A stretch of 63,563 nt of DNA, filler included, from Platydemus manokwari (Eukaryota): NCBI GenBank assembly GCA_037951405.1. It is 6 parts of 6 records of this genome, joined end to end, with 100 filler letters (N's around TTAATTAATTAA, not from the genome) between each part and the next. Parts side by side here need not be neighbours in the genome. Positions count along the whole stretch, not along the records: positions 26,856 to 41,171 come from JBBMOY011484751.1; 5 more parts are not named here. One strand, given 5' to 3'. Shown here one piece after another: positions 1-59,300 of this stretch (its first letter is position 1; every line of letters starts with the position of its first letter). The notes below the pieces were generated by a model, which saw only the letters and a program-made list of their open reading frames with translations, did no database searches and was not told the origin of the DNA. The translations under genes were made by a program, and so were the position numbers.

Positions 1-760
1 ATACAAATATTATTATTTATAATTTAGACAATTACAATAAGGAATAAGATAAAGAATAGAAAGAAAATTTAATATTTAATTTAAAAGGTTAATTATTGTA
101 TAATAAAAATTTTTAAGGTTAGATAATTTGATGAAATTTTGAAGTTCAAGAACTCTTAAAACAATAAACATTTAGTCTGAAGTAAAATAATGGTTTCAAA
201 TTTACAGGAGTGATTGAAAACCCTAGGTGCAAAGTACCGAATCTCAGCATCTATATAAGCTGAGGGGCTTCTATCCCAACTCACTTTCAACATTTGGTAG
301 TATAGATAACTTGATAATCAGAGCTTAGTAGCAACATTTTTTTTAATATTCAGAACTTTGTAGCGATATTTGAGATATTCAGAACTTTGTGATATTTCTT
401 GACCAATAATAGATTTTGGTAAAAAAAATCTTATATAATAATCCTATAATCAATACTCTTTATTAAACCCAACCTATTTAAGGATTCACCTTTGGGGTTT
501 ATATAATAAAATACATATTAACTTTGTAAGGATGATAGACAAGTTTCCACGATCTCAATGAGATAACTGTACCGATTTGTTTATTAAAAAATCGTTTGAG
601 CTAAATTGTCTGAGTTAACTTACATCTATAATTTTGTGTTAATCATATTTAAATAAAGTTTTTGTTTGTGCGTGTTATTGATTTTATATTTAAAATACCA
701 TAAAGAACTCACGCTGTTGAGTTGCCCAAACAACTAAACACCATACATAACCCAACGATT
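1..760 (+). repeat. Dispersed structured repeat, copy A
   Basis: Collinear with ~7790-8470 and ~51960-52690. Conserved stem blocks at 210-276, 481-500, 545-563 and 706-723. Confidence 0.8.
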
Positions 761-939: not shown

Positions 940-1460
940 TGCAAGCCGATACTATTTTATAAAGCACACATTGAAAACGAACCGTCACGAAAACTCACGA
1001 TACCAGATTACATCTTTATTAAAATTATTCAAATAATTTTAAAAACTTACAAATTTAAATTTTCTCCAAATTATTAATGATCTCTGTATCTAATTCTCTA
1101 GATATTTGTCTATCTAAAGATTTTGATTTCTTCTCTACTTAATATCTTCTCCATACCTTTTTATATCTTCTCTATATCGTTATATATCTTCATATCTTCA
1201 TTGTATATTTGTGTCTTCTATATATCTTCACTTTTTCTGCTCTACATCTTCTACACCACTTTACATCTTTTCTATTTTTACTCCTTCCTATCTTCTATAA
1301 TTCCACGTCATAGACATTCTCAGAATCGAATACAAATGCGTGGTCGTCATGTAAATCGCTTCTATGATGATGATGCAAATGATATCTTAAGTACAATTAT
1401 TCAAATAAATAAATATTTTTTTATATATTTTTTCAAATTTCAATTTATTACCAAACTTGA
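940..1460 (-). mobile_element. TRIM-like element, diverged copy
   Basis: LTR-like end TGCAAGCCGATACTATTT at 940, CT-rich interior, and minus-strand PBS TGACGACCACGCATTTGTATTCGA abutting a second LTR end at 1350. Confidence 0.6.
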
Positions 1461-1900
1461 CACGTACATTAAGAACAATGGTCAACGATGGAGTGCTCTG
1501 ATATCGAACCTCCTTTGTGTTGTTATATATATATATATTAAAACTGTGATGTTCTGCTAAAACAATTGATTTTATATTTTTTTAATTATTTGTTTTTTAA
1601 TGTTTTTATTTTAAAAGAAATATGATTTCAGAAGACCACAAAACTAGCTGTGGGTCGTGATTTAATTAAAACAATAAATAAATTACTCATGGTCATCCAT
1701 TGGAAGAATTGCAAAAATAATAAAACTCTTCTTGAGATAATTTGCAGATTAATAGAATTAATTGTGCATACAATTTAGGAATAATTCTCCCACGGGTATC
1801 GCAAATTGGATAAAATAAAATTGGACTTTCAAAATTGTGTCGATAAATGTTGAGCTTTTTAATATTGTCAATTTATAACATGATTGATCACATACAGTTA

Positions 1901-2065: not shown

Positions 2066-2930
2066 CTGTAACACAATATTAATTTTTAGTTAATTCAGAT
2101 ATGTGAAATCAACCGCATTTAATATTTTTATTTAAGCATCGAAACTAATTTATCATTTTTGGTAATCAAATAATTATAAATTGTAAAAATTAACGCTATG
2201 TATATAGGAACTTTTAATTTTTAATTGTTTAACCGACTCTAGAAAATCTTTTAATGGATCTGAAGAATGAAATATTGCAAAGATAATAAATTTGAAAAAA
2301 ACTAGTTAATTATTATTATTTGAAAGAAGACACAGATAATCATCACAATCAGTTTGAAAATTGTTTATTATATTTGTAAATTATTTCATTGTCCTTAAGT
2401 TAAATTATTTTTATTTACCTATTTTTCAGAAATTAGACAGTAAAATTAGTCTAGTTTCTTCATCTTTATTTTGGGGTGGTTTATAGTAAATTTTATTACG
2501 ATAATTATATTACAATTCAGTCAGCTTGATATTTTCTAAAGGCCATTGACTTATTGCATTTTTATATCACGAGACAAATGAATCAATCAATATATCCTAA
2601 TATTTTTAATTTTTGATTTTCAGACAGTTTTTCTTTAATAATTGTATTATCACAAATTATTCACGAAATTGACAGAAGTTTTTAAATTTACTTGATATTT
2701 TAAATTAATAATTAATAGACATTTAAAACTGTTCATAATTCTTATTTTTAAAGTATATACATATATAAAATTTTAATCATTTTATTTCTTAATAATTTCT
2801 TATTAAAAAATGAAAATATGATTAATAAATTTAGTAATGTTTTAATATAGTAAATATATTTGCTTTGACCTTAAGTAACATTAATAGTTTTGATATTTTA
2901 CACGTCGAAATTTCGAATTGTTATATCTAA

Positions 2931-3863
2931 ATGAATATATTTAGATTATGCGGTGATTTATCCCATCTAGGGGCAATAATTATATTACTTATAAAAATAT
3001 GGAAAACTCGTTCTTGCGCTGGTTTGTGATTCATTAAATCAAAGCAAAATCTATTAATTGAATTACTTCAGGGGTTTCGGGCAAAACGCAAATTCTTTTT
3101 CTTATGGTTTTTACTACCCGTTATTTAGATTTATTCACAAATTTTGTGTCGATATACAATACAGTGATGAAAATAACATATTTAGTGCTGATTTATGTGA
3201 CGGTGTATCTTATTTACAAGAAATTCAGACCATCGTTTAATGCTGAAGATGACACGTTTAGAGTGGAATTCGTTATAATTCCTACTTTAGCTCTGGCAAT
3301 TCTAGAAAATCACAAAGCAGAAATAATGGAAGTATGTTGACATTGTTTTGATACAGTTTTCTTGAACCATTTGATTGACTTTTGAATTTTAGATTCTCTG
3401 GACATTTTCAATTTATCTCGAATCTCTGGCCATTTTGCCACAGTTATTCATGATCACGAAAACAGGATCAGCGGAGTCGATTACTTATCATTATTTATTC
3501 GCGTTGGGTATTTATCGAGCTCTATACATTGTTAATTGGCTCTATCGATACTACACTGAAGGATTTTATGATCTAATCGCTATCGTCGCCGGTTGCGTTC
3601 AAACAGTTTTCTATTTAGATTTCTTCTATCTCTACGCGACCAGAGGTAAGAATCGTATGATGATTCATCATCTCGAACAAATCAAATCTTTCATTATACT
3701 AATTACTATTGTTGTAACAGTTTTTCATTAGCAATGATGTTATTATATTGTTATTTGATAATCAAAGCACAATCGAATAATTATAATATTGATTAATATT
3801 GCACTATTTTATTGATTTCTTATTTCAGTTCTCAAAGGCAAAGAAGTGCTTCTGCCAGTCTGA
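2931..3863 (+). CDS. KDELR: ER lumen protein-retaining (KDEL) receptor, ERD2 family, 212 aa, 4 exons
   Basis: Exons 2931-3021, 3072-3331, 3393-3645 and 3829-3863, all GT-AG, total 639 nt. Protein reads [17 protein letters not shown]...SCAGVSGKTQ...[16 protein letters not shown]...[13 protein letters not shown]...[11 protein letters not shown], matching ERD2 motifs. AATAAA at 4103-4108. Confidence 0.97.
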
Positions 3864-6800
3864 TTGCCAGAGAGGTGCACAAAAAATATTCTCGCGCTTA
3901 TGCATGTTTACCAATCAAAATTAAGCATGCCGCGATCATTTTTATCGTGTATAGTTTGGGATCGGTTTTAAATGATGACTTTGTTTTACTGTGAGTGATT
4001 TCGAGCGGTGTGCAATCATAACCAGATATTATGTGTGGTGTGTGTGCCTATATCGCTTGGTTACTCGATTCTGTGAATTGTAAATTTTCAACGTGTCGGT
4101 TAAATAAAACATTTGTCGTATTTTCTCGGTGAATTTTGTGTTTCTTTATATGATATCAGAAATGTTTTCGTACATGCATACATAATTTGCAATTGATTTA
4201 TCATTTAATATCAAGTTCAGTAAATTATTAGATTGATTGTTTTGTTTTAATTAATGCCTATATGGCTTATAAACATTATGTGGATACCACGTAGAAATAA
4301 TAATGTAATCATATATTGGTAATCATATTATGTAATAATCAAGGAATAATTATAAATGTTAAAAATACATAATTAATTCAAGATTATAACAAACATTGAA
4401 TAATTCAGATTTCCAATATTGCACAAGAGCAACTTGTTGGAATGAGATTTGAGAGTCTCAAATATCACCTGCATTAAGTAGAGCAGTAACATATATTGTT
4501 TACAAAATACCATTAAGTCATATGTTACAAATATTGTCTATATGAACTCAATAAAGACTGCGACTAAAATATATTGAAATGAATTTCTACTTGGAATACA
4601 TTATCGAGTGCAAGTAGATTTAATGAGTTCTAATAATTACCAGCATAAAGAAATATTTATATTTACATTGATCTATTGTTTGAATAATTGATTTTTTATA
4701 TTGGCTTAAATATGAACCTATTTATTTGTAAATTTGTTTTATAAAATTAAATAACATTGTAAATAAATATGTTAACAATTCAATTTATGAAATTGTCTTT
4801 TAGAATTATTTTCACTCAATACATTGATGAATGAATAAAATGTGGTTTTAATTCGCTACCAGCAGACATAGATCATTACAAAGTATTTTCCAATATTAGA
4901 AAACATTGAAGTGATATTTTGGTATTGATTTTTGGTTTTTTAAAGAAGTTTTGAAAATTATTTTTTTTAAAAATATTTACATTGTAAATACGTTTGTAAT
5001 TGTTAAATAAATATTTGAACATATTTATATCAAATAATGATTCCCAAGATTTTCATAAGTTACTTCGATAAAACTTGAAGAGAAATCTACAATGAAATAA
5101 GTTTAACTTAATAATGATGTTAATATTTTCATTTATTCAAATCTATCTGTGGTGTTCTCGCCTAAACGTGAAAATAATTAAGAAAATAAATGGATAAATA
5201 ACAGAAAAATTCAAGAATTTTGAATAACTTTTAAAAAAGTTCAGGCTTTTCTTAATTGAGATTTGTCCCAATGACTCAGCCATTTTAATTGGATTTTGTT
5301 TGAGACAAAACCAGTCCGCAGATACACGGAGAAATTAAACGAAGACAAAAAATGTTTGTCTCTTTCGAATGAGAGGCTTTGTTTCGAGTAAATTAAGACA
5401 AAGCTTCAATGGGGAGAAACTAAATGGCTTTACCAGTGCCATACAAACCCGGGCGAGTCAACTATTGTTATGCTATATAAACAAACTGCTCTGAGTCATA
5501 AATGCACAAATTTGGATCAACAAAAGGAATGTAAACTACATTCACTAAGTACACCACCTGGAACAAATAAGCAAGCATTTTGTACAAACTGACAAACAAT
5601 AAGTGAATCCTGTTTACCAGATAATTGTTAACAAATATTTGAGGAATAATTGTAGCTATAATATAATAATAACTATAAATTAGAACCACGAATCACAGAC
5701 ATTGATCAATACACACACAGAATCATCATCACGAGGATAAACGTGCGTCAGAATTTTCAGACAATCAGCCATCCATGTTATATATTGTGCGATTTGGCAC
5801 AAATATTAGAAATAAATCAAACTAAGTCAATCTGATCAAGCATCCATTCCTATTTTGTATATGATCATGAACTAAATAAATAATATATTATTTCGATCAA
5901 TTTAACAGGATAATCACTGATAATAATAAATAGATATTGTTAAAATCACGCACACATCTCCAGTCTTATCATTTAAAAGGTAGCTGATGCTCCACTGTCA
6001 AGCGATACCAGTGGTAGTTTATACTGGGGTCTTGTTGTAACAAATTAATTTAATTAAAATTAAAATTAATTTTTATTGATTTTTTCGTTCGTTTTTATTG
6101 ATTTTGATAGCTATTATTAATAAAAATGTGTTGAAATTCGGGACAGTAAATAGTCATAATATATGTTAACCAATAATCATTACTACTGATAAATTGTTAA
6201 TTAATCTTATAAGGAACTCTTCCTTATTTCTGATATATATAAGTCAGATATACAGATTAAATATTGAGAATTTGTGGCTATCATAACATTTTTACAAATC
6301 GTGCATTTGTACTAAGAACTACATAGTTTCGATCTGGGTAGTAATAATAATCTTGTATGGAACACCGGTGGTTATTTTTTGTTTATCCAGGTATTTATTT
6401 ATTCGTATAACCCACATTGGAGTCTTGATTCAGTATAATTAAACCATAATATTGAAATTATAAGAAAATAAAAACGAGTCGTCGCTTAGTTAAGGTTTGA
6501 TAAAATATATAACATTCATTAAAATTATTGACAGAATAAAACTGATTGGGATGATGAGTCGTAAGAGAAATAAAATGTTATTCTGAGTTTTGCAAAAAAT
6601 TGCAGTCAATCTGTTTAGTTAATAAAATAATTGATTCTTTCGAATGTTTTGTTTGTCGAATATAACATTCGTTTTTAATCATTAACAAATTTCGGCTTTA
6701 GAATGTAATGTTCACGTAAGTGTTCTGAATTTTTAGGGCACGTTTTACTATTTGCTCTTCTGTTTATATGCTTGGATTTCTTTATTTACTTGATTTCCTA

Positions 6801-7789
6801 TTTTATTTATTCTTTATTACCATTTTTATGTTCAATTATTTATGATTACTATTTTTAGATCTTTTTATTTTATAGATTTATAGATTCTATTTAATCTATT
6901 TTTAGATTTTTTCTATTTTAAATTTAATTAATCATCTTTTTTTCAAAATTTTGAAATTTTTTATATATTATTATTACTTGGGATGTAAACAACAATATGG
7001 AGATGAGAATGCAATAATAACTATTTCGTAAAGAAAAGGTGATGAGTGAGTAATGTGTAATACTCTACATAAAGAATAAAACAAGCAAATATCCCTTCAT
7101 TTATTAAAAACAAATATTAGTTTCTTGGCTAAAATTTTTACAGAACAGATTTGCTCTCTTAGGATAAATCAGAAAATTAGGATATGTATCGAGACTTCAC
7201 TCACTATCTGACGAATGAAGATGACTGAGAGCATAACTTTAACTTTCCTTTCAAGGAAACGAATTACGAAGGATTTGTTATTTTCAGAAACCAGAGCCGA
7301 AGACACAAATGTCAATACTTTAACACGTGTATCATGGTGATATTTTTTTGGAAAGCATTGGCCGGCTAGTGCTCTACTCAGATAGTAAAGAGAGCGAGGA
7401 AGAAAAAGCTCCCATTACCATCAGTTGATATGGTGAATGTAAGAGCAGGGTAGTCGGGGAAAAATACGAACAACACCAATCAACACCATCCCAATAACAC
7501 AAATCAGATGAATTTAAAAAGCCAACTGCGCTTCACTGAAAACCGATAAAATCGACTGAACCGGCAAAACCAAACCCAAAATGGGAAACATGGGGTATGA
7601 GAAACTGCAGTGATCGTATGATAGTCAACAAGAATTCCACGGGTACTGCTTCGTCAGGAATATTCATTTATTCAACAATCCAAAATCTACTTTTTGACAA
7701 TTAATTGTGATCTGATGACTCTGGAATTGATGACAATTTTTATGATTCGATAATAATTTTATTTGAAATTAAATCTGTAAATTAATTAT

Positions 7790-8470
7790 TATCTATGTAA
7801 TAAAATATTTCAATAAAATACATATTATTATTTATAAATCAAATAATTATAATCAGAAAATAAGTAAAGAATAAAAAGGAATTTAATAAATAATTTTAAA
7901 GGTTGACAATTTATAGAAAAATTTATGATGCCGACCAAATTTAAATTTTTATAGGGTTAAGGTACTTTTAAAATAATAAATGACTAAATAATAAAAAATG
8001 TTTAAAATTTACAAGAGTGATGGAATATCCTAGGTACAAAGTACCGAATCTCAGCATCAATATAAGCTGATGGATTTCCATCACAATTCACCAAAAAAAA
8101 TTTCGAAATGAAAAATTCTAGATTGTAGCTTAGCATAAGACAAGGAAAATTTCAGAGGGCAATTGAAATATATTTGCAATAATTATTATAATAAATAATA
8201 ACCCAAATTTTTCTAAAGGATTTCACCTTCGGAATTAATATCATAAAATCTATATAAAATTTTATAGAACCTAATCATTAGTTCTCACGTTCCCGGTGAG
8301 ATCACTTGACGCATTTGTTTTTATAAAATTTTGGTTTGAGTTAATTTTGTTAATCGATTTGTACGATCATAAATTAAAGGGTAATTTAATTGTTTTTTGA
8401 TTTGTGTAATAATATAAAAGTCAAATTGAAGAACTCAAGCTGTTGAGTTGAACATAAATGACAACGAACA
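7790..8470 (+). repeat. Dispersed structured repeat, copy B
   Basis: Three-way junction 8017-8084, C(UUCG)G hairpin ~8219-8235, TCTCAC/GTGAGA hairpin 8283-8301, AACTCA/TGAGTT hairpin 8432-8449. Confidence 0.8.
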
Positions 8471-8684
8471 CGATATACACAGTCAAATATTTTCTATAAA
8501 TTCCTGGAATTTTTTTGAGTATTAAGAAAATTGCAGAGAATATTGAGGTCATTTGGTTATTCCTTATAAGTGGAGGTGACCTATGATATAGGAAAGTGAG
8601 ATGAGACAAACCTGTGGTAGATTTATGGTTTAATTAATTAATGATATATTGTAATGTATAGAAATTACAATTTGAGTAATCTTA

Positions 8685-8758
8685 TTAGGTTGTTGGGAAA
8701 ATAATGGCCGTTTGTAAACGTATACTTTAAAATACTATAACTCGCTTTAAAATGAACT
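8685..8758 (+). mobile_element. Tc1/mariner terminal inverted repeat end (truncated by gap)
   Basis: TA|TTAGGTTGTTGGGAAAATAATGGCCGTTT resembles the cecropia/Hsmar1-type TIR TTAGGTTGGTGCAAAA. It is a reverse-complement match to 51690-51766. Confidence 0.7.
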
Positions 8759-8858
8759 NNNNNNNNNNNNNNNNNNNNNNNNNNNNNNNNNNNNNNNNNN
8801 NNTTAATTAATTAANNNNNNNNNNNNNNNNNNNNNNNNNNNNNNNNNNNNNNNNNNNN
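8759..8858. other. Assembly spacer (artificial)
   Basis: N44-TTAATTAATTAA-N44. Confidence 0.98.
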
Positions 8859-9014
8859 CCTTATAATTTAATTATTAAATTTCTTATATAACACAATATG
8901 CAAATTAGTGTCCCGACTTATGAGTAAAGCTTTATTTTATCAAGACTAATAATATTAGTAGTCGGTTTTGGTGCTTTTACTGTCATTTTTTATATAAGTA
9001 GGTCCGCTATTTTG

Positions 9015-9201
9015 AGTTAACCGCTATTTTAAAAACCACACATTAAAAGCTAACTTAAAAGTCAAGACACCAAAAATCTATTCAAATACAAATATTGAAA
9101 CAAATAAATTTAATTTTATATAAATATGATTTTATATAAAATTAGAATTAAATTAAAATAAGGTTTGAATTAAAAATATAATTCATTTAAAATATCTCAC
9201 A
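9015..9201 (-). repeat. Solo LTR of the TRIM-like family
   Basis: Collinear with 20501-20678 (CCGCTATTTT..CACATTAAAA..AGTCAAGACA..ATATCTCACA). Confidence 0.7.
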
Positions 9202-10756
9202 GGTCCAAATTACAATAAGTATGAAGCACTTAACTATACAAGTTAAACATTGATTGTTAATTTCACGATAATAAGTTTGGAATATTTTTAAAATCTCAGA
9301 AAATATATAAATAACTAGGTGTGCATGACAACGAATTAATTACGGTTAAAGGATTAAGATACACAAAAACACATAAAATATAATGACATACTAATAGAGG
9401 CCTTAAAAAATATATAAATTAAAAATATTTTAGAAGTTCAATGATATTGTTGAATCCAGGAGAATTGAAAAATGCAATTTATATTTCACACAATCGTACT
9501 AATCAGTACTTACATAAACAACTCCAAAATTCATAAAAATATTCTACGAATCAAGTATTAAAATATCATAATACTGGGATTACAGTTAGTTATTCTTGCC
9601 AAAAAGAGACGCTTTACATTTTTCTGCACACATTATTGAATTGATTCGTTAAAATAAATTGTTCTAGAATATTTTATTCATTTTTATTTTTTGGATAAAG
9701 TAAATTGTTAATGATTTTCTTTTAGAATTTTTCTAATTACACTTATTTAGAATTTTTATATTATTTCTTTGAATTTTATCTTTTACATACTCAACAATAC
9801 TACAATAGGAGAAAGTGTTATAACTTAAATAACAATGAATTTGTAACATCTTAAAAAATTTACAAAATAAATAAACAACTTCTTAAAAATCAATAAAAAT
9901 TAATAGTTTCCTAAAAATCAATAACAGTCAAAAATAAACAAATTATTGATTGAGATGGTAAATCGAGAATATTTGAAATATTCCTCAAAATACAATCGAT
10001 ATATCTGAAGATAAGATATTTTCGTAAAAGAAAACACATTTTTCTTATAATCGATAATAAAACATAAAAATACTATATAAATAAAGATATTGTTTGAAAA
10101 CAAAATCGATAAACATTTTCAAACAATAGACACCAGAGATAATTATTAATAACAATTATGCGCTAATGTTGCGATTGTATAATAGCTATTATGATAAAAT
10201 ATTGGAACCATTTCTATGTTGTCTTTCTCATTGAGCTCACAAACAATATTTTAACATTAAGCTCTTGACAACACAAGCTTTTCCCACACAAAAATCTCAA
10301 TGTTATTAATATGATGCAATATCAATTGTTGAAAATTCCATTAATCAATACTCATAATCAATAGTCAGACTATTGTCAAAATCTTAATAGGTTCGTATTT
10401 CGTATGACGTCATGAGCATTTAATGAATAATCGATGATTGTCTAACTGTTAGCGATAAAACAAATTATCACAATACAATCCGACATGTTATAATAATAAT
10501 TTATGAACAATAATGCTGTCGTGAAAATGGCTTTTAAAAATGAAGCAAACAACGAGCTGAAATATATAACAAACAAAAAAAACCGCGATATTCATACGCA
10601 TTCACAACACACACACACACAAACACAATCAATCGCACTATTTGGTCTAGTAGTAGACAAGCATTACCTGCCACCGAATCAGCGTTTAAATCAATAAATC
10701 AACTAAAAATCAAAATCATTCTTAATCCATAAATATTCTATTGAAAAAACCATTCT

Positions 10757-13726
10757 TCAATTAGAAATTTTTTTACTTTCGTTTTGTGGAACGAATTCTG
10801 GGGCCTCCGGATTGAGATTGGCCATTGGATCTCTATTTTTGTTAACCGCATTCCACTGTGGACGATTTTCAATCAATCGTATTTGCATATTTGTCGTATC
10901 AACTTCAAGCTTGGTGCTTGAACTCAAGATCTGAATTGAAAATAGCGATAGTTTTTTTTCATAAAAATCATAAAAAAATCAATCCATCACCTGACCAAGC
11001 GAATAAAGATCCATTGCAAAATGTACAATACGCTTGAATCCTGCAATCACCATAAGGGGCACCCATCCATTTGCATCCATATGAGAACGCAAATAAGTGT
11101 CTTTGCGTAAATTCTCCTCGCTAAAGTAATACTCGACCTAATACAATATGTCACAATCTGTATCCATCCGTCATACAATCGTTGTCATACCTGTTTCAAT
11201 AAACTATCATTGATTACATTTTCATTGGCGAATGGAATCATTTCTGGATGCAATGACACCAATGAATTATAATCAATATTTTGTGTCAAAGGTGATGACA
11301 CAGATGGTAAAAATAATATTTGATTGTTATATAAACTGCCAGCAGAAACAGTCGTCATGATTCCGGCGTTGGATTCAGATACTTGATTGTTGTAAAGCAA
11401 AGAAATGCCCGTTGCTAAAATTCAAAAAAAAACAAATCGTCACATGATATCTCTGTTGCAATATATTATTATCGATAGCACTACTCTGATGTAATAATTA
11501 TCAATAAATTTCACTATCGAAGTTCACAGTTATACAGCCTTTTATTTCGAATATATAATAAATAGATATAAATAATAATAATAATGATTGAGTATATTAT
11601 ACTGCCCGTCATAACCGAACCCCTTGCTTTATTATCGTTTTTATATATCATTAGCTCATTCGCAAAACAATTCAAAACTTACAATAATTCGGATAAATGG
11701 GCATATAATCCATATTTTTAGATCCATTGTAGTTATTTTCATTGGATTTTGTTTGATTGTATCTTGTCGAATTTCTTCCTCTACCGCCATACATACGTTT
11801 ACCTCGTGAGCCAGCAGCTTGGCGGAAATTTTTTTGTGGAGATTTATTATTCGATTCTTGTATCTCATTTGAAAGATCATTCGACTCTGGTTGCCACTGA
11901 AAAGGTGAATATGGTTGAATATTATTAATATATATATTTTAATCATTTTATTTCGCCACCAAAACAGCTAATATCAGCTGAGTTGATACGGCTTAACCAC
12001 CACATTTGATTCAATATTCGTCTCACATGTAGGCATCAATTTTGGTTATCATATGTAGTTTAATACTGCAATGATGCCGACATCTATTTCCACGCTATAT
12101 TTGCGCTACGATTCAATACCAATATCATCACCGATCAACAAACAAATCCATTACAAAATAGATAAACAAAATAATTATCAAAACAAACATTTTCAGAGCG
12201 ATAATTGTTGCTCTTATTGAATTGACGAGGTGGTTTGAATCCATCATTGGAACGGTTTTTATCCGCATATTCATTTTCCGAATTATCCTTAACTGGGGCG
12301 GCTTGGTCGAAGGAATTGGGTTTATAATTACGATATTGTCTACCACGATAATTTGGTTTGTTTTCTTTGTTTTCCGTTTGTGCTAAACAATGAAATTTAT
12401 ATATGGAATGAATAAATATACACATAAATTCATAAACGATTATTGATTTATTTGTGGACATTTATTTTTGGAGTTTTAGAGAAAAAAAAATATAAAATAA
12501 TGTCTGCCATTTATTTGAATTGTACAATCAATACAATCGATAAATCTGAAATTCCAAAAATTGAATTTAAATAAATATGAAATAAATAAACCAAAAACGA
12601 CAAAAAAACGAAAATCAAATCAGGACAAAAGCATGAAACTAGCGCTGCAAGTGTGGTGCATATTTAAAAGCACCTGTGGAATGATTAAATCTATTTTAGA
12701 CTCCACAATGTTAGACTTTATCGGATAAATGTCTGTAAAAATGGAATCGATTTAAATTAATATTATAAAAAAATGTTTCCACGGTTTCCAAAATGATCAA
12801 ATGTTGGATTTAACACAGCGCACACAATGGCGCTCTGATGAATCGATAATTTTCGTGGTCTATTTAATTTTTCGCTGGATTATGTAATCACTGATATTAG
12901 TTGGCAGCGTATTCAATCAATCTATAACAGAGAATTTATGCCGAATATATCGATCGGTATTGCAATACACGAATCGGCAATAAGCAATCAATAATATGCT
13001 ATATAGATTGAATTTAATAATATTCCATTTCGAGTTTATCTTTATCGAAAATATTAATATCATCACAATAATTGATGCATAATCAATGAAATACCATCAG
13101 AACTATTGTTACCATGACGATTTGGCACGTTTTCCGAACTTGTATATTTGAAATCAACATGAAGCCTTTCCCATCTTCGTTTACTATTGGCAGCGTTAGA
13201 ATGGTTTCCTGGTTTCGATACGTTGTTTTCAGCTTTATCAGATTTTACCTAAAAACAAGAAAATTAATCAATTATTTTATCAGATAAATGAATTAATCCG
13301 TTTTTTATAAAAATCAATAAGTAGAATTATTTTTTATAACTGAATATGACAATTATTAATTAATTTGGAAATAAACTGCTTCATTTTATATTCCTAAACC
13401 GATTATTAATTGATTTTGATTTTATTCGTCGATAAACTCAATCATTTACTTTAAATCAATTCCATAATTATTTAATCAATAATTTGTTATAAAACCACCA
13501 TACACTAAAGAATTTTTATTGATTTAATAAATATATATCTAAAAATCAATTTAGTATTTTAATCAAAGTACCTCAGTATCCAATTGAACCAGTTTTGATT
13601 TTTCTAAAATTGGCCAGTCCTCCATTGATCCTAAAAAAGTTAAAATTGTATATTAAATAAACAATTTTTTTTAATAATTATTTTACTTGGATTTTTAATT
13701 TTTTTATTTTCTACAGTCGAGGTCAT
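10757..13726 (-). CDS. La-related protein, LARP1-like (La motif plus C-terminal PAM2; no DM15 region seen), ~395 aa, 8 exons
   Basis: Minus-strand exons 13726-13687, 13630-13572, 13248-13113, 12382-12189, 11896-11683, 11414-11191, 11137-10991 and 10930-10757 are phase-consistent (1188 nt). La motif LLKQVEYYFSEENLRKDTYLRSHMDANGWVPL; N-terminal DWP and KRRWERLHVD motifs; RG-rich segment; LNPEAPEFVP PAM2. Confidence 0.88.
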
Positions 13727-20500: not shown

Positions 20501-21119
20501 TGTTAGCCGCTACTGTTTTAAAAGCTTCACATTAAAAACGAACTGAACAGTCAAGACATCAAAAATCAAATTAAATATAATTATTTAAACCAATGATTTT
20601 AATTTTATAAAAATATGATTTTATACAAAAATATAATTAATTTGAATAAATTATTTAATTCATTTAAAATATCTCACAGGCCCCTTTCTTTAAAATCTTT
20701 GATTTTGTTTATCGTCTCTGTATCGAATGCCCTACATATTTCATTATTCGAAAACTCTAATTCTTCTACCTTTTTATACATTCTTTTACATCTCCTTTAT
20801 ATCTTCTTTTATATTTTCTTTTATATTTCCTTTTTATCTCTTCTACATCTTCTTTATATGTTCTCAATATAGTCTCAGCATCTTCCTCCTTCTTTTCTAT
20901 AATTTTCAGTATTTGATCTGTTCATAATCGAATCCAGATATGTAGTCGCCGTGTTAGCCGCTACCACCTCACATTAAAAATGAATTGAAAAGTCAAGACA
21001 CGAAAATCTATTTAAATACATAGATTTAAACCAATGAATTTAATTTTATAAAAATATGATTTTATATAAAAATAGAATTAAATTTGAATTAAAAATTTAT
21101 TTCATTTAAAATATCTCGA
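20501..21119 (-). mobile_element. TRIM-like element, second two-LTR copy
   Basis: Direct repeats 20501-20678 and 20952-~21119. On the minus strand, PBS CGGCGACTACATATCTGGATTCGA follows the 5' LTR and PPT AAAGAAAGGGGCC precedes the 3' LTR. The interior is CT-rich on the + strand. Confidence 0.82.
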
Positions 21120-26514: not shown

Positions 26515-26640
26515 TGTAAGCCGCTAGTATTTTAAGAACAGCATATTAAAAACGAACTGAAATGACATGGCAGAAAATTATGTATTTAAATACATTTTTT
26601 ATAAACAGCTTCATATAATTTTATATCTTAAATATTTTTA
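26515..26640 (-). repeat. Partial TRIM-family LTR
   Basis: TGTAAGCCGCTAGTATTTT..ATTAAAAACGAACTGAA matches the LTR end. Confidence 0.6.
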
Positions 26641-26644
26641 TATC

Positions 26645-26663
26645 TTAATAATAATAATAATAA

Positions 26664-26697
<34 letters not shown>

Positions 26698-26855: not shown

Positions 26856-28506
26856 ATTTGTTTGAATAATGTTTATTTGTTTTTAATTAATAAAATTGTG
26901 AAAATCCTAATCATGAATTCTTTTGATGCAACCCCAGTAACAAACGAAGTCGCTGCAACTAACATACAATAAATCCCAGTAAGAAGGAAAATGCGTTCAC
27001 TTAAATTTATTGAAATTATTGTGCGTGAAACTAGAAAATGTATTCGTTTAAATACTAGTTTAGGTTGTGGCGTTTGTGGGTGTCATTATTCATTATTTGC
27101 TAACCTTAAAAATTTCCTATGTTGCCATGGTGATCTTGAATTTAAATCACTAACGTTGCCACTAGCATTTTCATGGCAAGATGCATTAATCATACTTTCA
27201 ATCGTATTTATGTTAAAATTATTTCCGCCTACAATAAGAATTATAATTATATTTATAATTATATGTATTAATTATTTATATTTAAATATTTCTATGGATA
27301 CATACGGATATCCAACATCATGACATATTTATTTATATTTATATTTCATATAATTGGGTTTCACATTCATGTTTTATTTCATATAAGATTTCAAATTCAT
27401 TTTTCTATTTTCAGCAGCTTTTATTCTTTTAACTTTTATTACTTTTTGTTTTATATCCAATATTAATTTACTAACCACAGCTCATTATATCTCAAATTTA
27501 TCATTACCGTAGTTCCTCGAGATGTTACAATTCAAGTTGATGAATTTCAGAATACCCTAAAAGATATATTCATTTTAAATGTTTCTGCTGGTTCTTTGGC
27601 AAAACCACTTGACATCATTAAAAGATGGCTTATTGAAATTCAGCAATGCATATAATAGTGTCACATCTTGACTTGAAGCATATGATAATGATTGTATTAA
27701 AATCCATTCTGTATAATGATGGTTTGCAAGTCACATCATTCAATAAGTTAATTGTGGTATTAATTTTTAATAATTACCTGGCTTTAGCTATGGCAATAAA
27801 AACCAATATCTGTTATTTTGATAATAAAAATTATTATATAAAAATGGATTTCAAATTGTCACATAAATATCTTATGTGTTTTCATCGGATTTAAACAATC
27901 TTTTACTATAATATCTAATCAACTTTTATCATTACAATTTTTCCATCTTTCAAATATTTTTATGAACAGATAATATGATTGGTAGTCAGTTAAACACATA
28001 AGTCCAGAAACTATTTTATTGATTTATGAAAATAAACATATTTTTTTCTAAAAATGTTTGATGAGTTGACAATTGCAATTGTTCTTCAATCATAATGAAA
28101 TATTGGTTAATACGACATATAAATTGTTCAAATATATGTAATGTGTACCGCAATGTGCAATTGTCTTTTATTGGCTTCAAAGTTGCTATTTAATTTTAAA
28201 TTTTGAGACAACAGTGGCATTTAAGAATATCGATTTTCGCATAAAATTATGAGTTAAATTTTATACTCTAATTGTACTCAATTAATAAGTTATTGAAAAT
28301 TATTTGATAGAGTTTATCTGAGATCATTTTTAGTACCCGATGAAGTGAAAATAATTATTATTGAGCATTTATTTTTCGTAGCAATTTTAAAGATACAAAT
28401 CCACATAATATAAAGGTACAGAATTGAATCATTAGTTAACATTGTATAGGAATATTTTATCTTTCGTAAAGAATGAAAACAGAAAATCTTATTTCCCTAT
28501 ATTGAA

Positions 28507-29082
28507 TATGAGAATTTGAAATTGAATTAAATTTTTATAGATTTAATTTTGTATAAAAATTGATTTTAAAAATTATAATAATTTGTTTAAATAATTGTAT
28601 TTAAATAGATGATGTGATGTCGTGACTTTTCAGTTTGTTTTCGTTTTTTTTAATAGTGGCGACTAACATGGTGACCCCCTCATCTGGATTCGATTCTTAG
28701 AAGATCAATAACCGAAAATTATGGAAAAGAAGTTGAAAGATATGTTGGGATTTTAATAGAATAGAAAAAGAAGATGTATAGAAGATTTCAGAAGATTTAT
28801 AGATATAAAAAGATTGAAGAATTATAGTATTTTATGTAGATAAATATGTAGATAATTTGATACAATGTCAATTAAGGATACAAAGAAAATCCAAGATTTT
28901 TAAATAAAGGGGGTGTGAGAATATGAAATTGGATTAAATTTTTAAAGATTTAATTTTGCTTAAAATATGATTTCTAAAATTATATTAACTTGTTTAAATA
29001 ATTGTATTTAAATAGATTATGTGATGTCGCGACTTTTCAGTTCATTTTCGATGCATGTTTTTTAAACTACTAGCTTCTCACA
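28507..29082 (+). mobile_element. Miniature non-coding LTR retrotransposon (TRIM-like), structurally intact
   Basis: 5' LTR 28507-28668 (TATGAGA..CTAACA); PBS TGGTGACCCC..GGATTCGA from 28669; purine-rich non-coding interior; PPT AAATAAAGGGGG 28902-28913; 3' LTR 28914-29082 (TGTGAGA..CA); 5-bp TSD TTGAA at 28502-28506 and 29083-29087. Confidence 0.88.
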
Positions 29083-29842
29083 TTGAATATAAATGGAGAA
29101 GACGATAAATTATTTTATAAAAATATTTTTTTTAATTGTGTCATTTGACTAGCTCATTAAGAACGTTGATCTTTGAAATACATTCCATGATTTCATTTTA
29201 TATTAACCCAATTATACAGCAATTATATTGAATAAATGTACATTTGTACTTAATTAATTCTGGTAAATTTTATTTGATTAAGTAGCTTTCAATGTTTAGA
29301 AACTGTAGATTGTATTGTAACACTTGTTCAATCGCTGCATCTTCAAATCTGGTATGTTTGGCAGTGAATATAAATATAACGTTTACTGCGATACTGAATT
29401 TTGTATTTAATTAAGAATGTGATCTGATTCATTTACAATTGACCAAATTAGTGATGCTAAAAAATAATCGATATTAATTATTTTTCTGTTTGATTAAAAA
29501 TCAACATTTGTTTAAAATCGTTATTAATTGATTTTTATACATATAATCGTTTATTATAAGAACAGAATGTGATCGATAGATGATTTCAGAATTATTTTAT
29601 ACTTAATATTGCTATGATCAGAATATCTAATAATGTAATTCATTATTGATTGATAAATTAAATTAGCCAATCATATTCGAGAGATTTTTCGAGAGTACCA
29701 AAATATCAAATCAATTGAAAACAATCGTATTAAACAAGATGATCGATTGTTAAAACTGAAAAATATGAATGAAGTGCTGGTAAATATTTATTTATCACAA
29801 CCCAATATGCCAATAGAAAAATAGACAACAACAACAACAACA

Positions 29843-31313
29843 CTACAAAGACGTATCGACTGAGCAAATAATAAAAATCTGATCGTTCCTGCACAACTCA
29901 TCATTCGATAACAGTTCATCCATTGAAATGAATTTGTGGGAGCCAAATGCTATTCGTTTGTCATCTGTCGGTTTTTTCCAAGCGATATTGTCGACAACAT
30001 CGTCGAATCGCACTGTTCGACTGGTATGAATGAGTCCGGACTGTTGATTGATCAGTGAAAACGTCACCGAATGTTTCATTGGCCATTGTAAAATGTCATC
30101 GAACGGGCCTTGGATTATGCAAAAATGAACCGCCAAATACGAACCCTTTCCAGTGTTAATTCCACTCGGATCGACTCTCAAACACATTTTGTATCCGTTT
30201 CTATGAGAGTAGAAAGATTCGCTGTAAATCTCCTGATTGGTTGCTTCTCGAGCTTTTTTAATTTTATCCGAAAACTGATCGATAGTCCACACAAATTCTC
30301 CATAATTCTGTTTTTCCTGAATCAAGCGCAATTGTGTGATTTTTTTATCGAAATTATCGATTTTTTTGTTGATTATTTGAATGGTCTTGTAGATATCTGG
30401 CCTCATTGTGAGGATATCCGTTTCAATTGCCATTTCAGTGATATCCTCCAGTTGCGATGACTAGATTAAAATGAAATATCAATTAATTATAATCGATAAT
30501 TATTACTGGATCATAATCGACCAATAGATTTGCTCCATTGTATTCGCTTTCTGGATTTCGATATTCGACTTCGTTCAGATTTAATTGACTCATTAAATGT
30601 TTGATTTGCAAGGATTTATAATGATCATTGATTATCAATTGTGAAATGATAGCCTGCATTAATATTACGTCACTGTCACCACTTCTGAATTAATTATAAG
30701 ATACCTGCTTCTCTTCAGCATCCTTTTTGATATGATGGATTTCTTTCTTCAATTCATTATTTTCCTTTCGAGAACTAGAAATGGCTGATTTTATTATTCT
30801 TATTTCATTTCTCAAATTATCGATCCATTTCATCAATAATTTCGTGTGAGAATAATTCTCCACGTCTAAATGTTCATTGATTTCGTCTTTAATCATTTTG
30901 GATTCGCAGCACCCAAGATTAGAAAATGGACATTTGACTGAACCGGTTTCGTATTGTATCAAATCTTCTTTGATATTGTGGAATTCGTCGATTGATTCAT
31001 TTGATTGCTTGTTACACTTTACCACTATTCTCGAAATTTTACTTTCAGTTGATTGGTCAACAAGAATATTTTCATCGATATACAATAATTGTTTTCTACA
31101 CTCATCAAATTCTCCAGGACAACACTTTTCTTCTCCATTTAAATATATTTCAATGCACTCCCAACAATATTTGCAGCCACATAGTCCATTACAAGCATTT
31201 TTCACTGTTCCTTTGCAAATTACACATGTCTGTTCATTAGTAAATAAATCATGATTCTCGTTGATTTGATTTTCTGTGGTATGTTTAGCATTATAAAAAT
31301 TATTAACTGCCAT
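29843..31313 (-). CDS. TRAF: TNF receptor-associated factor (RING, degenerate zinc finger, coiled coil, MATH), ~457 aa, 3 exons
   Basis: Exons 31313-30705, 30653-30507 and 30460-29843 with 51- and 46-nt introns. RING CVIC..CGCKYCWEC..CP; TRAF finger remnant CPFSNLGC..EHL; MATH GEFVWTI..SESFYSHRNGYKMCLRV..GKGSYLAVHF..GPFDDILQWP..NDQIFIIC. Confidence 0.93.
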
Positions 31314-49362: not shown

Positions 49363-49510
49363 TGTAAGCCACTACTATTTTATAAAAGATGCATCGAAAA
49401 GGAACTGAAAAGTCACGACAACAAATTATGTATTTAAGACCAATTAAATAAATAAAATTATTGTCTTTTGATATTAATTTATGAAGTATTTTTGAAATTT
49501 AAATTTTTTT
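49363..49510 (-). repeat. Partial or solo TRIM-family LTR
   Basis: TGTAAGCCACTACTATTT..GAACTGAAAAGTCACGACA matches the LTR end. Confidence 0.6.
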
Positions 49511-49977
49511 ATCCTCAAGGCATTCATGAAATTTTTTCTTTTTCGTATTTTTTGTGATTAGTTCTCACACTAATTTTTTAAAGATTGATAAGGTTTTATT
49601 GGTTCGACTCATGAAATTATTAAAAAGATGGTTTTCTAAATTGTATCACTGTACTAATTGATATCCCTTTGCACTTGTTATTTTGCCAATCATTCATTCT
49701 GCGATGATTTTAAAGTTTATATCAATAATTTGTTTGAATATTTTGATTAAATATACTTTTGGCTTGACCTTCTTAAATTGTTTTTAATTCGTATTTAGCG
49801 AAATAGTAGCAACCAACAAATTTAATTATTAAAAATTATCATTGAAGTGCGAAAATCTTCTATATTCACTAATTTCTTTAATCTGCTTCTAGTATTTAAA
49901 ATCTTTATTACGAGCTAGATGGATTTAAAAATATTTTCGATAATGAAAAGATGGATATTTTTACTTTTGATCTTTAG

Positions 49978-51766: not shown

Positions 51767-51959
51767 TAACATTATTCGATGATGATTTGACAATTTGGTA
51801 AATGATTTTTATGATAATCTGACGTTTTTGAATATTGTAAATAACTGTAATATTTTATTATGTGACATTTATGATGTCATTTATGAAGTTGTGTAAAAAG
51901 ATATGATATAAAAATACGTGGATGAAAAATATTAATATGTTATGTGGATAAAAAAATAT

Positions 51960-52690
51960 ATGAAATAAAAAAAATATTATTATGTATAAATCAAATAAGG
52001 AATAAGACAAGGAATAAAAAGAAATTTGATATTTAATTTAAAAGGTTAATTATTTTATAATATAATTTTTAAGGTTAGATAATTTAATGAAATTTTTAAG
52101 TTAAAGAACTTTTAAAAACAATAAACATTTAGAGTTTAAAGTAAAATAATGGTTTAAAATTTACAAGAGTAGTGGAAAATCCTAGGTACAAAGTACCGAA
52201 TCTCATTTCCATCACAACTCACTCTCGATAAATTCGATATTGCTGATGGCAAAGGCGACAATTAAAACGATATTTTTGGACGAAATTACTTGATTGAAAG
52301 GAAAAGATAAATCGGTAGAAATAAAACCATATTAATTATTTATATTTGTGTTAAAACAAAAGAACATTTCTTTATCCTAAAAACACTGAAGGATCCACTT
52401 TTGGGGTTCATACAATAAAATCTATACTAATTTTGTAATGTATATAGTTTAATCCTCACGATCTCGGTGATATAACTTTACCAAGTTGTTTATTTAACAT
52501 TATCGTTTGAGTTAAATTGGTTGAGCTAATTTTATTTGTAAATTTTTGTTTATAGTATTTTTTTATAAAGTTTTATAAAGATGGTATTTGCCTTTTATTT
52601 ATTGATCTCTAAATTTACCTAATAAAAGGAACTCACGCTGTTGGGTTGATTAAACAACAAAAAACATCTACCACGACCCAACATAAATTA
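51960..52690 (+). repeat. Dispersed structured repeat, copy C
   Basis: Closely matches copy A over the first ~250 bp. One arm of the junction is deleted (52169-52215). Hairpins at 52390-52410, 52455-52470 and 52630-52647. Confidence 0.8.
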
Positions 52691-57964: not shown

Positions 57965-59300
57965 GTAATTCTTTATTTACAGAGATCTACTGTATTGAAA
58001 AATTGAAAAGACCGGCTTAAATATTTAGAAATTTTGAATATGATTTACAACAATTACCATGTTATGCACAAAAGTTTTACTCCTGATTAAGTAAATACAT
58101 CTTGGGAGGTTAATTTGGTCGTACCAACTGATAATTACGCAATTACTAATCAATATGCAATCAAACAAATATACATACACAATATACTTACCACATTCAC
58201 ATTTCCATTTACAAATCACCCTTACATCCCCTCTCTTTTAAAATCTTTCAACCACAATCTTTCATGTCTTTAAACTGTCTGCGCATTCCTGATTTCGAAT
58301 AAAATGATCCTTTTGACTGTAGATATCTTCTGTCTGGGTTCTGAAACTTCTCAAACTGTCGTCGTGTTGGTGCACTGCTATCACTTCTTCTAGGGAATTT
58401 AATGTTGGGTTGATTGTTTACTCTGCACTGACATTGAAAATGACCATTTTCACCGTAGTCAAGGCAGTGTGCATTGCTGCATTTAGCTCTGATGTGTTCG
58501 AGTTGACTGCAAGCTTCACATTGTCGAGTTTATCTCCAGGTGTTTTGATATTTTACATTTGGTGACTACCTTTTCGTTTCATGTTGTCGAATTGAGAGTT
58601 GATTTCTCCCTATTTGAGCATTCTATTGCTTTGTATTCCTTGTTATCTCTGCATATGACAACTTTATATGAATCACAGCAAGTTATTCTTATCCCTGGAT
58701 TTCTTTTTGAATGTCTTTGATATTCTGAATAACATCTTTTGCTTGGTGCACTGTTTTCACATTTCACATTTCCATCTCTTTTTTATTTCCACATCCTCAA
58801 TTGCGTGTTGTGTGAAAAGCATTATTAGATTTGACAAAATTCTGGACGTTGGTAGCCATGTTAGTAATAAGACTTTTAATAAGGAATGATCTATTTTAAA
58901 GAAATTACTATGCTATGTACGTCGTTTTATTTCTGATGATATAAATACATCTTGTGCAATCACTAATCAACATGCAATCAAACGAACATACATGCACATC
59001 ACACTTACCGCATTCACATTTTCATTTACGAATCTCCCTTGCAAGAATAAAAAAGCGTATGTAAAAATTGATAATATAAAAAAATCTAAATTCCATGAAC
59101 ACTCTATCAATACCTGAATAATGTTTGTTTTATATTTTCCTGACAAAAATTTGTTGAAAATGAATTGCGATATTTTGACAAAAATAATGGCAAACACATT
59201 TACATTGACTGCAATTTTACAAATAAGAATTTATTAGTTAAGTTCGATATTTGATTCATAAACTTCTCTTTCCGACTTTATACTGTTACAGAGTACCAGT
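57965..59300 (-). mobile_element. Decayed LTR retrotransposon: gag relic, PPT and 3' LTR
   Basis: Two zinc knuckles, CEACSQLEHIRAKC and CLD(Y)GENGHFQCQC, at 58520-58425. PPT AAAAGAGAGGGGA at 58239-58227 is directly followed by TG at 58226. Outer boundaries are approximate. Confidence 0.7.

What the first reader, a model, noticed from the sequence alone, without database searches (positions are those of the whole stretch)
28507..29082. Abundant TRIM-like miniature LTR retrotransposon family
Seen: a 576-bp element with ~165-bp LTRs, PBS, PPT and TTGAA TSD but no coding capacity. Two more two-LTR copies (20501-21119, 940-1460) and at least three solo or partial LTRs (9015, 26515, 49363) occur in 63 kb. 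Known: TRIMs are mostly described in plants, with a few animal cases such as the ta-TRIMs of taeniid cestodes and an ant TRIM. Inference: a high-copy non-autonomous family mobilised in trans. The LTR pairs are diverged, so these insertions are old.
Basis: partly seen in the sequence, partly recalled or inferred. Interest (0 to 1): 0.72.

Follow-up and report, generated by a model that had tools for sequence, protein, structure and literature searches.

The report
Miniature retrotransposon with traceable Gypsy parent
This is a real, old jumping-gene family with over a thousand non-coding miniature copies in what is likely a flatworm genome, and it still carries scraps of the first and last codons of a larger retrotransposon lineage, from which it likely shrank and whose enzymes it likely borrowed to spread.

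Summary
Confirmed, and extended. Window 28507-29082 is a two-LTR, non-coding element with a TTGAA duplication. It belongs to a TRIM family with at least 1,170 interior-bearing loci (roughly 2,300-12,000 estimated), two star-like subfamilies (about 575 and 620 bp), 5-bp target duplications and a 12-nt tRNA-Arg(ACG) primer site. LTR pairs are old (median K 0.20 and 0.15). New here: the interior is not anonymous. Its first codons match the gag start, and its last ~10 codons the integrase end, of a Ty3/Gypsy lineage in the same genome. That lineage shares the LTR ends, primer site, polypurine tract and 5-bp duplication. An 11-bp purine array fills the middle and breaks every frame. The closest coding family found is a sister family (about 60% identical in the gag relic), not the direct parent. 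The gag relic is predicted to pair further with the primer tRNA's T arm, Ty1-style, which may explain why it was kept. No planarian TRIM turned up in my paper searches, but Repbase and Dfam could not be searched. This scan had not noted the family before. A new member of a known kind.

The parts
28502..28506 (+). 5' target-site duplication TTGAA
   Evidence: family 5-bp TSD
28507..28668 (+). 5' LTR (162 bp; terminal TG mutated to TA)
28669..28680 (+). Primer-binding site for tRNA-Arg(ACG), decayed in this copy (8 of 12)
28681..28698 (+). Box predicted to pair with the primer tRNA T arm; lies in gag-derived codons
   Evidence: predicted, untested
28668..28743 (+). Relic of about the first 25 gag codons, starting at the ATG across the LTR/PBS junction; stop after 10 codons in this copy; downstream end approximate
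28744..28826 (+). Purine-rich array with 11-bp period; bounds approximate
   Evidence: autocorrelation 0.64, 0.60, 0.56 at 11, 22, 33 bp
28882..28913 (+). Relic of the last ~10 integrase codons, running into the polypurine tract
28914..29082 (+). 3' LTR (169 bp, TG...CA)
29083..29087 (+). 3' target-site duplication TTGAA
20501..21120 (-). Two-LTR copy of subfamily B (interior 273 bp, LTR pair 86.3%)
940..1462 (-). Decayed two-LTR copy
9015..9201 (-). Solo LTR
26515..26666 (-). Partial LTR, 5' end lost in an ATT microsatellite
49363..49512 (-). Partial LTR (3' part)
26856..26964 (+). 3' part of an LTR of the related coding Gypsy family, cut by the contig start
   Evidence: 83% identity, E 2e-27

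Best explanation
This is a non-coding miniature LTR retrotransposon (TRIM) family that likely arose by internal deletion from a Ty3/Gypsy element and was likely copied in trans by Gag and Pol of that same lineage. Shown: two LTRs, a tRNA-Arg primer site, a polypurine tract, 5-bp duplications, relics of the gag start and integrase end, an 11-bp filler array, and two old star-like subfamilies. Inferred: RNA from a few master copies was packaged by a coding relative, primed with tRNA-Arg(ACG), reverse transcribed and integrated. Solo LTRs and tandem arrays came from LTR-LTR recombination. The coding scraps were likely kept because in this lineage gag overlaps the LTR end and PBS and pol runs through the PPT, so the cis-signals sit inside codons. 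Those signals may include a predicted second pairing with the tRNA T arm.
For: Copies: 1,170 hits to a 27-nt interior motif, control 0. TSD: of 93 loci, 36 had both termini recognisable; 9 of 36 had exact 5-bp duplications (permutation mean 0.24), 16 of 36 within one mismatch (1.3), none exact at 4 or 6 bp. Subfamily B: 4 and 14 of 24. PBS: the tRNA-complementary base is commonest at 12 of 12 positions in 64 copies, then drops to 2% (tRNA). Gag relic outside the PBS: 60% identity between 31 TRIM and 18 Gypsy copies over 39 nt, against 27% +/- 6% shuffled; by codon position 54/78/48%, while TRIM-TRIM is 86/78/86%. Pol relic: 68.5% over 27 nt against 41% +/- 6%; best hit in the last ~27 residues of a 1,127-aa Pol for 20 of 29 A and 25 of 30 B copies. 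Relatives carry Gag zinc knuckles and protease, RT and integrase domains; database homologues add RNase H. Gypsy solo LTRs begin TGTGAG, mostly end CTAACA, and have 5-bp TSDs: 8 of 16 exact, 11 within one mismatch. The tree gives one split with long terminal branches, mean 0.175.
Against: No direct parent was found: a pattern joining the TRIM 5' interior to the downstream gag motif gave 0 hits. The closest coding family is only ~60% identical in the relic. LTR bodies score little above a reversed control (39 vs 34). Coding copies look younger (90% pairwise in the gag start) than TRIM copies (83.5%), so the family that mobilised the old bursts may be another or extinct one. Many motif-picked loci are truncated: 8 of 40 lacked a recognisable 3' interior. 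The relics are short (13 and ~9 codons) and copies share descent, so the statistics are not independent events. The block between array and pol relic scored no better than shuffles against Gag.
Confidence: 0.85

Rival explanations
1. A TRIM of unrelated or untraceable origin that only shares cis-signals with the Gypsy lineage by convergence, as proposed for ta-TRIM and lennie.
For: LTR bodies barely align. If the box after the PBS pairs with the tRNA T arm, part of the 5' match could be convergent.
Against: The match runs beyond the box, with second-position codon bias. It is 0.58 to one Gypsy family and 0.41-0.43 to another. The pol-end match is separate.
Confidence: 0.09
2. Heterogeneous, independently deleted remnants of a once-autonomous family, never mobile in short form.
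For: Many loci are truncated; interior lengths span 197-364 bp. Another deleted element of the lineage lies at 58120-59045.
Against: Copies share junctions and the 11-bp array, which needs a common short ancestor. Interiors cluster at 226-257 and 246-287 bp. TSDs flank the short form. The tree is star-like.
Confidence: 0.03
3. The family expresses a functional ~25-residue Gag-derived peptide.
For: The junction ATG is kept in 19 of 30 A copies; the frame often runs about 25 codons.
Against: No third-position excess of change among TRIM copies (86/78/86%); frame lengths run from 0 to 36 codons.
Confidence: 0.03

Closest known systems
ta-TRIM of taeniid cestodes, with candidate partner lennie (PMC4558846; passages and section 19 read)
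   Same: Flatworm TRIM with solo LTRs and tandem copies; partner argued from shared LTR start, PBS and TSD length.
   Different: ta-TRIM uses tRNA-Leu with an 8-nt PBS and mostly 4-bp TSDs in E. multilocularis, with 142 full-length copies; no shared coding relic was reported in what I read. Here: tRNA-Arg, 5-bp TSD, over 1,000 loci, gag and pol relics. Sequences were not compared directly.
PbTRIM of the harvester ant (PMC3532108; passages read)
   Same: Size 480-781 bp, LTRs 152-184 bp, non-coding interior, many solo LTRs.
   Different: tRNA-Leu PBS, 4-bp TSD, young copies; partner proposed only in general terms in the passages read.
biv-TRIM of bivalves (PMC6934838; passages read)
   Same: Animal TRIM with very many loci (27,489 in one clam), solo repeats and tandem arrays.
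   Different: No typical PBS and no autonomous partner detected.
Mini-Ty1 and the Ty1 bipartite PBS (PMC4974528; passages read)
   Same: PBS inside the gag frame; element ends suffice for mobility in trans; extra pairing with the primer's T arm.
   Different: Ty1 is a yeast element primed by tRNAiMet (its copia-type class is recalled) and its pairing is proven by mutation; here a Gypsy lineage, tRNA-Arg, and pairing only predicted.
Plant non-autonomous LTR families with coding remnants (PMC13570524; passages read)
   Same: Origin traced by coding remnants and partner similarity (54 of 115 sugar beet families).
   Different: Plant study of mostly larger elements; it shows that tracing an origin is not new in itself.

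Membership tests
TRIM | Small size (under 1 kb) with terminal direct repeats of 100-250 bp | tested here: met
   576 bp with 162 and 169 bp LTRs; other copies about 516-754 bp; definition from PMC6934838
TRIM | Non-coding interior | tested here: met
   Junction frame at most 36 codons in 52 copies; 11-bp array breaks frames
TRIM | PBS complementary to a host tRNA 3' end, next to the 5' LTR | tested here: met
   12-nt match to tRNA-Arg(ACG) in G000; that gene is cut by a contig end, and a full-length near-identical gene was called by ARAGORN (L042)
TRIM | PPT before the 3' LTR | tested here: met
TRIM | Target-site duplication and dispersed multiple copies | tested here: met
TRIM | Mobilisation in trans by an autonomous element | not testable with these tools
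   Inferred from shared ends, PBS, PPT and TSD length
Ty3/Gypsy (coding relatives) | Gag plus pol with protease, RT, RNase H and integrase last | tested here: met
   Domains found; integrase ends at the PPT and 3' LTR; order pieced from fragments and database proteins
Named Gypsy clade (for example Mag; recalled) | RT phylogeny with reference elements | not testable with these tools
   No named references; close homologues carry no element names
TR-GAG | Retains a Gag open reading frame | tested here: not met
   Only about 25 relic codons
Cassandra or retrozyme type | 5S rRNA or hammerhead ribozyme inside the element (features partly recalled) | tested here: not met
   Rfam scan of 28400-29200 gave 0 matches at E up to 1; one decayed copy only
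Ty1-like bipartite PBS | Second pairing to the primer T arm, needed for priming | tested here: inconclusive
   Predicted duplex mean -16.3 and -14.3 kcal/mol against -7.2 and -6.5 shuffled; box not diverged between subfamilies; post hoc, one ancestral event, no functional test

The most novel reading that the evidence does not exclude
An animal TRIM whose parent lineage can be read from both ends of its interior, and whose retained gag codons are an RNA signal: a second primer-binding box pairing with the tRNA-Arg T arm, stronger in the parasite than in its coding relatives. The family would be a natural deletion map of the minimal cis-module of a Gypsy lineage whose gag starts inside the LTR and which has spawned such miniatures more than once.
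Probability: 0.35. Interest if true: 0.6.

Novelty: new member of a known kind. Interest (0 to 1): 0.42.

Why it matters
Animal TRIMs described in the papers I found come from an ant, taeniid tapeworms and bivalves, with no partner or only a circumstantial one. Here descent from a coding lineage shows in the sequence, which supports the reductive-evolution model directly and marks which cis-sequences survive shrinkage. With thousands of likely copies the family is also a real part of this genome and needs masking. It is old and probably inert, and the kind of element is known, so the gain is for transposon specialists.

Tried and rejected
tRNA-Trp primer, suggested by this copy's decayed site (Trp site recalled): rejected, the family matches tRNA-Arg(ACG). 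Coding interior: rejected. Search for a direct parent: 0 hits. A second pattern for the 3' end gave 0 hits and was probably mis-spaced, so it says nothing. A further gag relic after the array: no better than shuffles. Sequencing runs: no RNA holder listed. The contigs of the one listed run piled up over the element (5,216 laid), but that is no copy number and may be the same sample. Naming the host through a window gene failed: one unnamed homologue, and the Atlas did not read the TRAF query. Rfam gave nothing. Earlier scan notes concern other elements. Ages were not converted to years because no rate was on hand.

Full report
Observation. The element is as described: TTGAA on both sides, a 162-bp and a 169-bp LTR that are 86.4% identical, and a 245-bp interior with a primer site and a purine tract. 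They scored E 6e-17 to 8e-63 against parts of other genomic copies, while the reversed-window control reached 2e-10 at best. The copy at 940 is decayed, and the duplications of the other window copies are unclear.

Host. The genome is 911 Mb in about 2 million contigs and the window is about 26% GC. The four best COX1 genes differ from one another (64-85% identity). One reads AAA as Asn and ATA as Ile, the flatworm/echinoderm code; the other three do not (code assignment from established knowledge). The host is therefore likely a free-living flatworm with other animals' DNA mixed in. This is an inference; no window gene was placed on a tree.

Copy number. A DNA search scored 40 of 5,601 candidates, nearly all near full length, and 74-78% identical to this copy. 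A 27-nt interior motif gave 1,170 hits within two mismatches, control 0. The share of copies passing that threshold was 15 of 30, 2 of 21, 0 of 2 and 3 of 30 in four differently chosen sets. That suggests roughly 2,300 to 12,000 interior-bearing loci, solo LTRs not counted.

Anatomy across copies. I examined 93 loci: 30 best DNA hits, 40 of the 100 listed exact motif hits, 21 of 25 primer-site hits (4 removed: 3 coding elements, 1 unrelated) and 2 window copies. Interiors measured 226-257 bp in 30 of 30 best hits (a biased set) and 197-309 bp in 32 of 40 motif hits; 8 of those 40 lacked a recognisable 3' part. Of 48 non-tandem two-LTR copies, 36 had both termini recognisable. Nine had exact 5-bp duplications (permutation mean 0.24) and 16 were within one mismatch (1.3); none was exact at 4 or 6 bp. 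Thirty loci found with the 20501 copy had interiors of 246-287 bp, with 4 exact and 14 near-exact 5-bp duplications among 24 assessable (no control run there). A tree of 69 copies gave one supported clade (these 30 plus 2), mean terminal branch 0.175, highest pairwise identity 88%. LTR pairs had median K 0.20 (n = 50, 0.075-0.35) and 0.15 (n = 29, 0.04-0.26). A fragmented assembly would collapse young copies, so recent activity is not excluded. Four loci hold two interiors in tandem, 80-89% identical to each other, and a fifth starts one at a contig end.

Primer and filler. In 64 copies the base complementary to the 3' end of tRNA-Arg(ACG) is the commonest at positions 1-12 (62-94%) and falls to 2% at position 13 (tRNA). 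The middle of the interior has an 11-bp period. The frame from the ATG across the LTR/PBS junction never exceeds 36 codons in 52 copies.

Parent lineage. Searching for primer-site variants found three elements in which that junction ATG lies in a gag-like frame. A Gag search gave 150 scored matches among 516 candidates, most of those examined from one family (38 of 57). Its relatives carry zinc knuckles, protease, RT and integrase, with about 70 close unnamed Pol homologues in public assemblies. Gag has an in-frame ATG further upstream, inside the LTR, in 15 of 18 copies. Integrase runs through the purine tract into the 3' LTR. Outside the primer site, the next 39 nt are 60% identical between 31 of 35 TRIM copies and 18 Gypsy copies, against 27% +/- 6% shuffled. 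The second codon position is best kept (54/78/48%), a bias absent among TRIM copies. The last 27 nt before the purine tract are 68.5% identical against 41% +/- 6%; the 18 nt before them only 44% against 30%. As peptides, the relics land at the expected places in most copies, with modest scores. Solo LTRs of the coding family share the terminal letters and have 5-bp duplications (8 of 16 exact).

Against a direct parent. No element joined the TRIM's own 5' interior to the rest of gag. LTR bodies hardly align. A second coding family matches less well (0.41-0.43 against 0.58). Coding copies look younger than TRIM copies. The donor is best read as a sister family, lost or not assembled.

Why the relics were kept. 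In yeast Ty1 the primer site lies in gag, the element ends suffice for mobility in trans, and boxes downstream of the primer site pair with the tRNA's T and D arms (PMC4974528, passages). Here nucleotides 13-36 after the primer-site start are predicted to pair with the tRNA-Arg T arm at a mean of -16.3 (29 A copies) and -14.3 kcal/mol (30 B copies), against -7.2 +/- 2.7 and -6.5 +/- 2.6 for shuffles. The main coding family gives -12.4 against -8.3. The box and the primer site did not diverge between subfamilies (0.84 between, 0.85 and 0.84 within), while LTRs and the 3' block did. The box is only 18 nt, the test was post hoc and all copies share one ancestor, so this is a lead.

Literature. 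Eight answered searches showed animal TRIMs in an ant, taeniids and bivalves; none of the titles listed described a planarian TRIM, and one search found no paper. I read passages of PMC4558846 (plus section 19), PMC6934838, PMC3532108, PMC13570524 and PMC4974528. Term look-ups in two planarian genome papers (PMC11410931; 10.64898/2025.12.11.693146) showed no mention of TRIMs in the main text: zero counts for 'non-autonomous' and 'miniature', and the 'trim' passages shown in the first concerned read trimming. Supplements were not read, and repeat libraries there, in Repbase or in Dfam may hold this family. Tracing an origin by coding remnants is established in plants (54 of 115 families, PMC13570524).

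Verdict. A real TRIM family, new member of a known kind, with an unusually legible origin. Interest 0.42.

Noticed in passing
window 58120-59045, minus strand: A second internally deleted LTR element, apparently of the same broad lineage: different LTRs, similar primer site with junction ATG, about 630-bp interior with broken Gag-like pieces, and a pol-end-like stretch before the purine tract. Copy number not checked.
   Followed up: partly
window 26856-26964, plus strand: 3' part of an LTR of the coding Gypsy family at the start of the same contig as the finding.
   Followed up: yes
L113-L138: In the main coding family the gag frame has an ATG about 17 codons upstream inside the LTR and reads through the LTR end and primer site (15 of 18 copies).
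   Followed up: partly
L065, L112, L126, L155, L166: Integrase end, one LTR and gag start lie in a row: tandem elements or assembly loops.
   Followed up: no
L074, inside the TRIM interior: A roughly 90-bp insertion with inverted ends and an 8-bp duplication, like a hAT-type miniature element (class recalled).
   Followed up: no
window 5-284 and 480-741; 7781-8351; 51931-52665: Another dispersed repeat of two conserved blocks with variable spacing, in three separate stretches, 72-85% identical. Class unknown.
   Followed up: no
window 29843-31313, minus strand: TRAF-like gene (MATH domain) ending about 760 bp from the element.
   Followed up: no
L215-L218: The assembly holds at least four different COX1 genes, one in the flatworm/echinoderm code, so it mixes several animals.
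   Followed up: partly
L031:749-787: A 3' half of tRNA-Arg with the mature CCA end in genomic DNA, likely a reverse-transcribed fragment.
   Followed up: no
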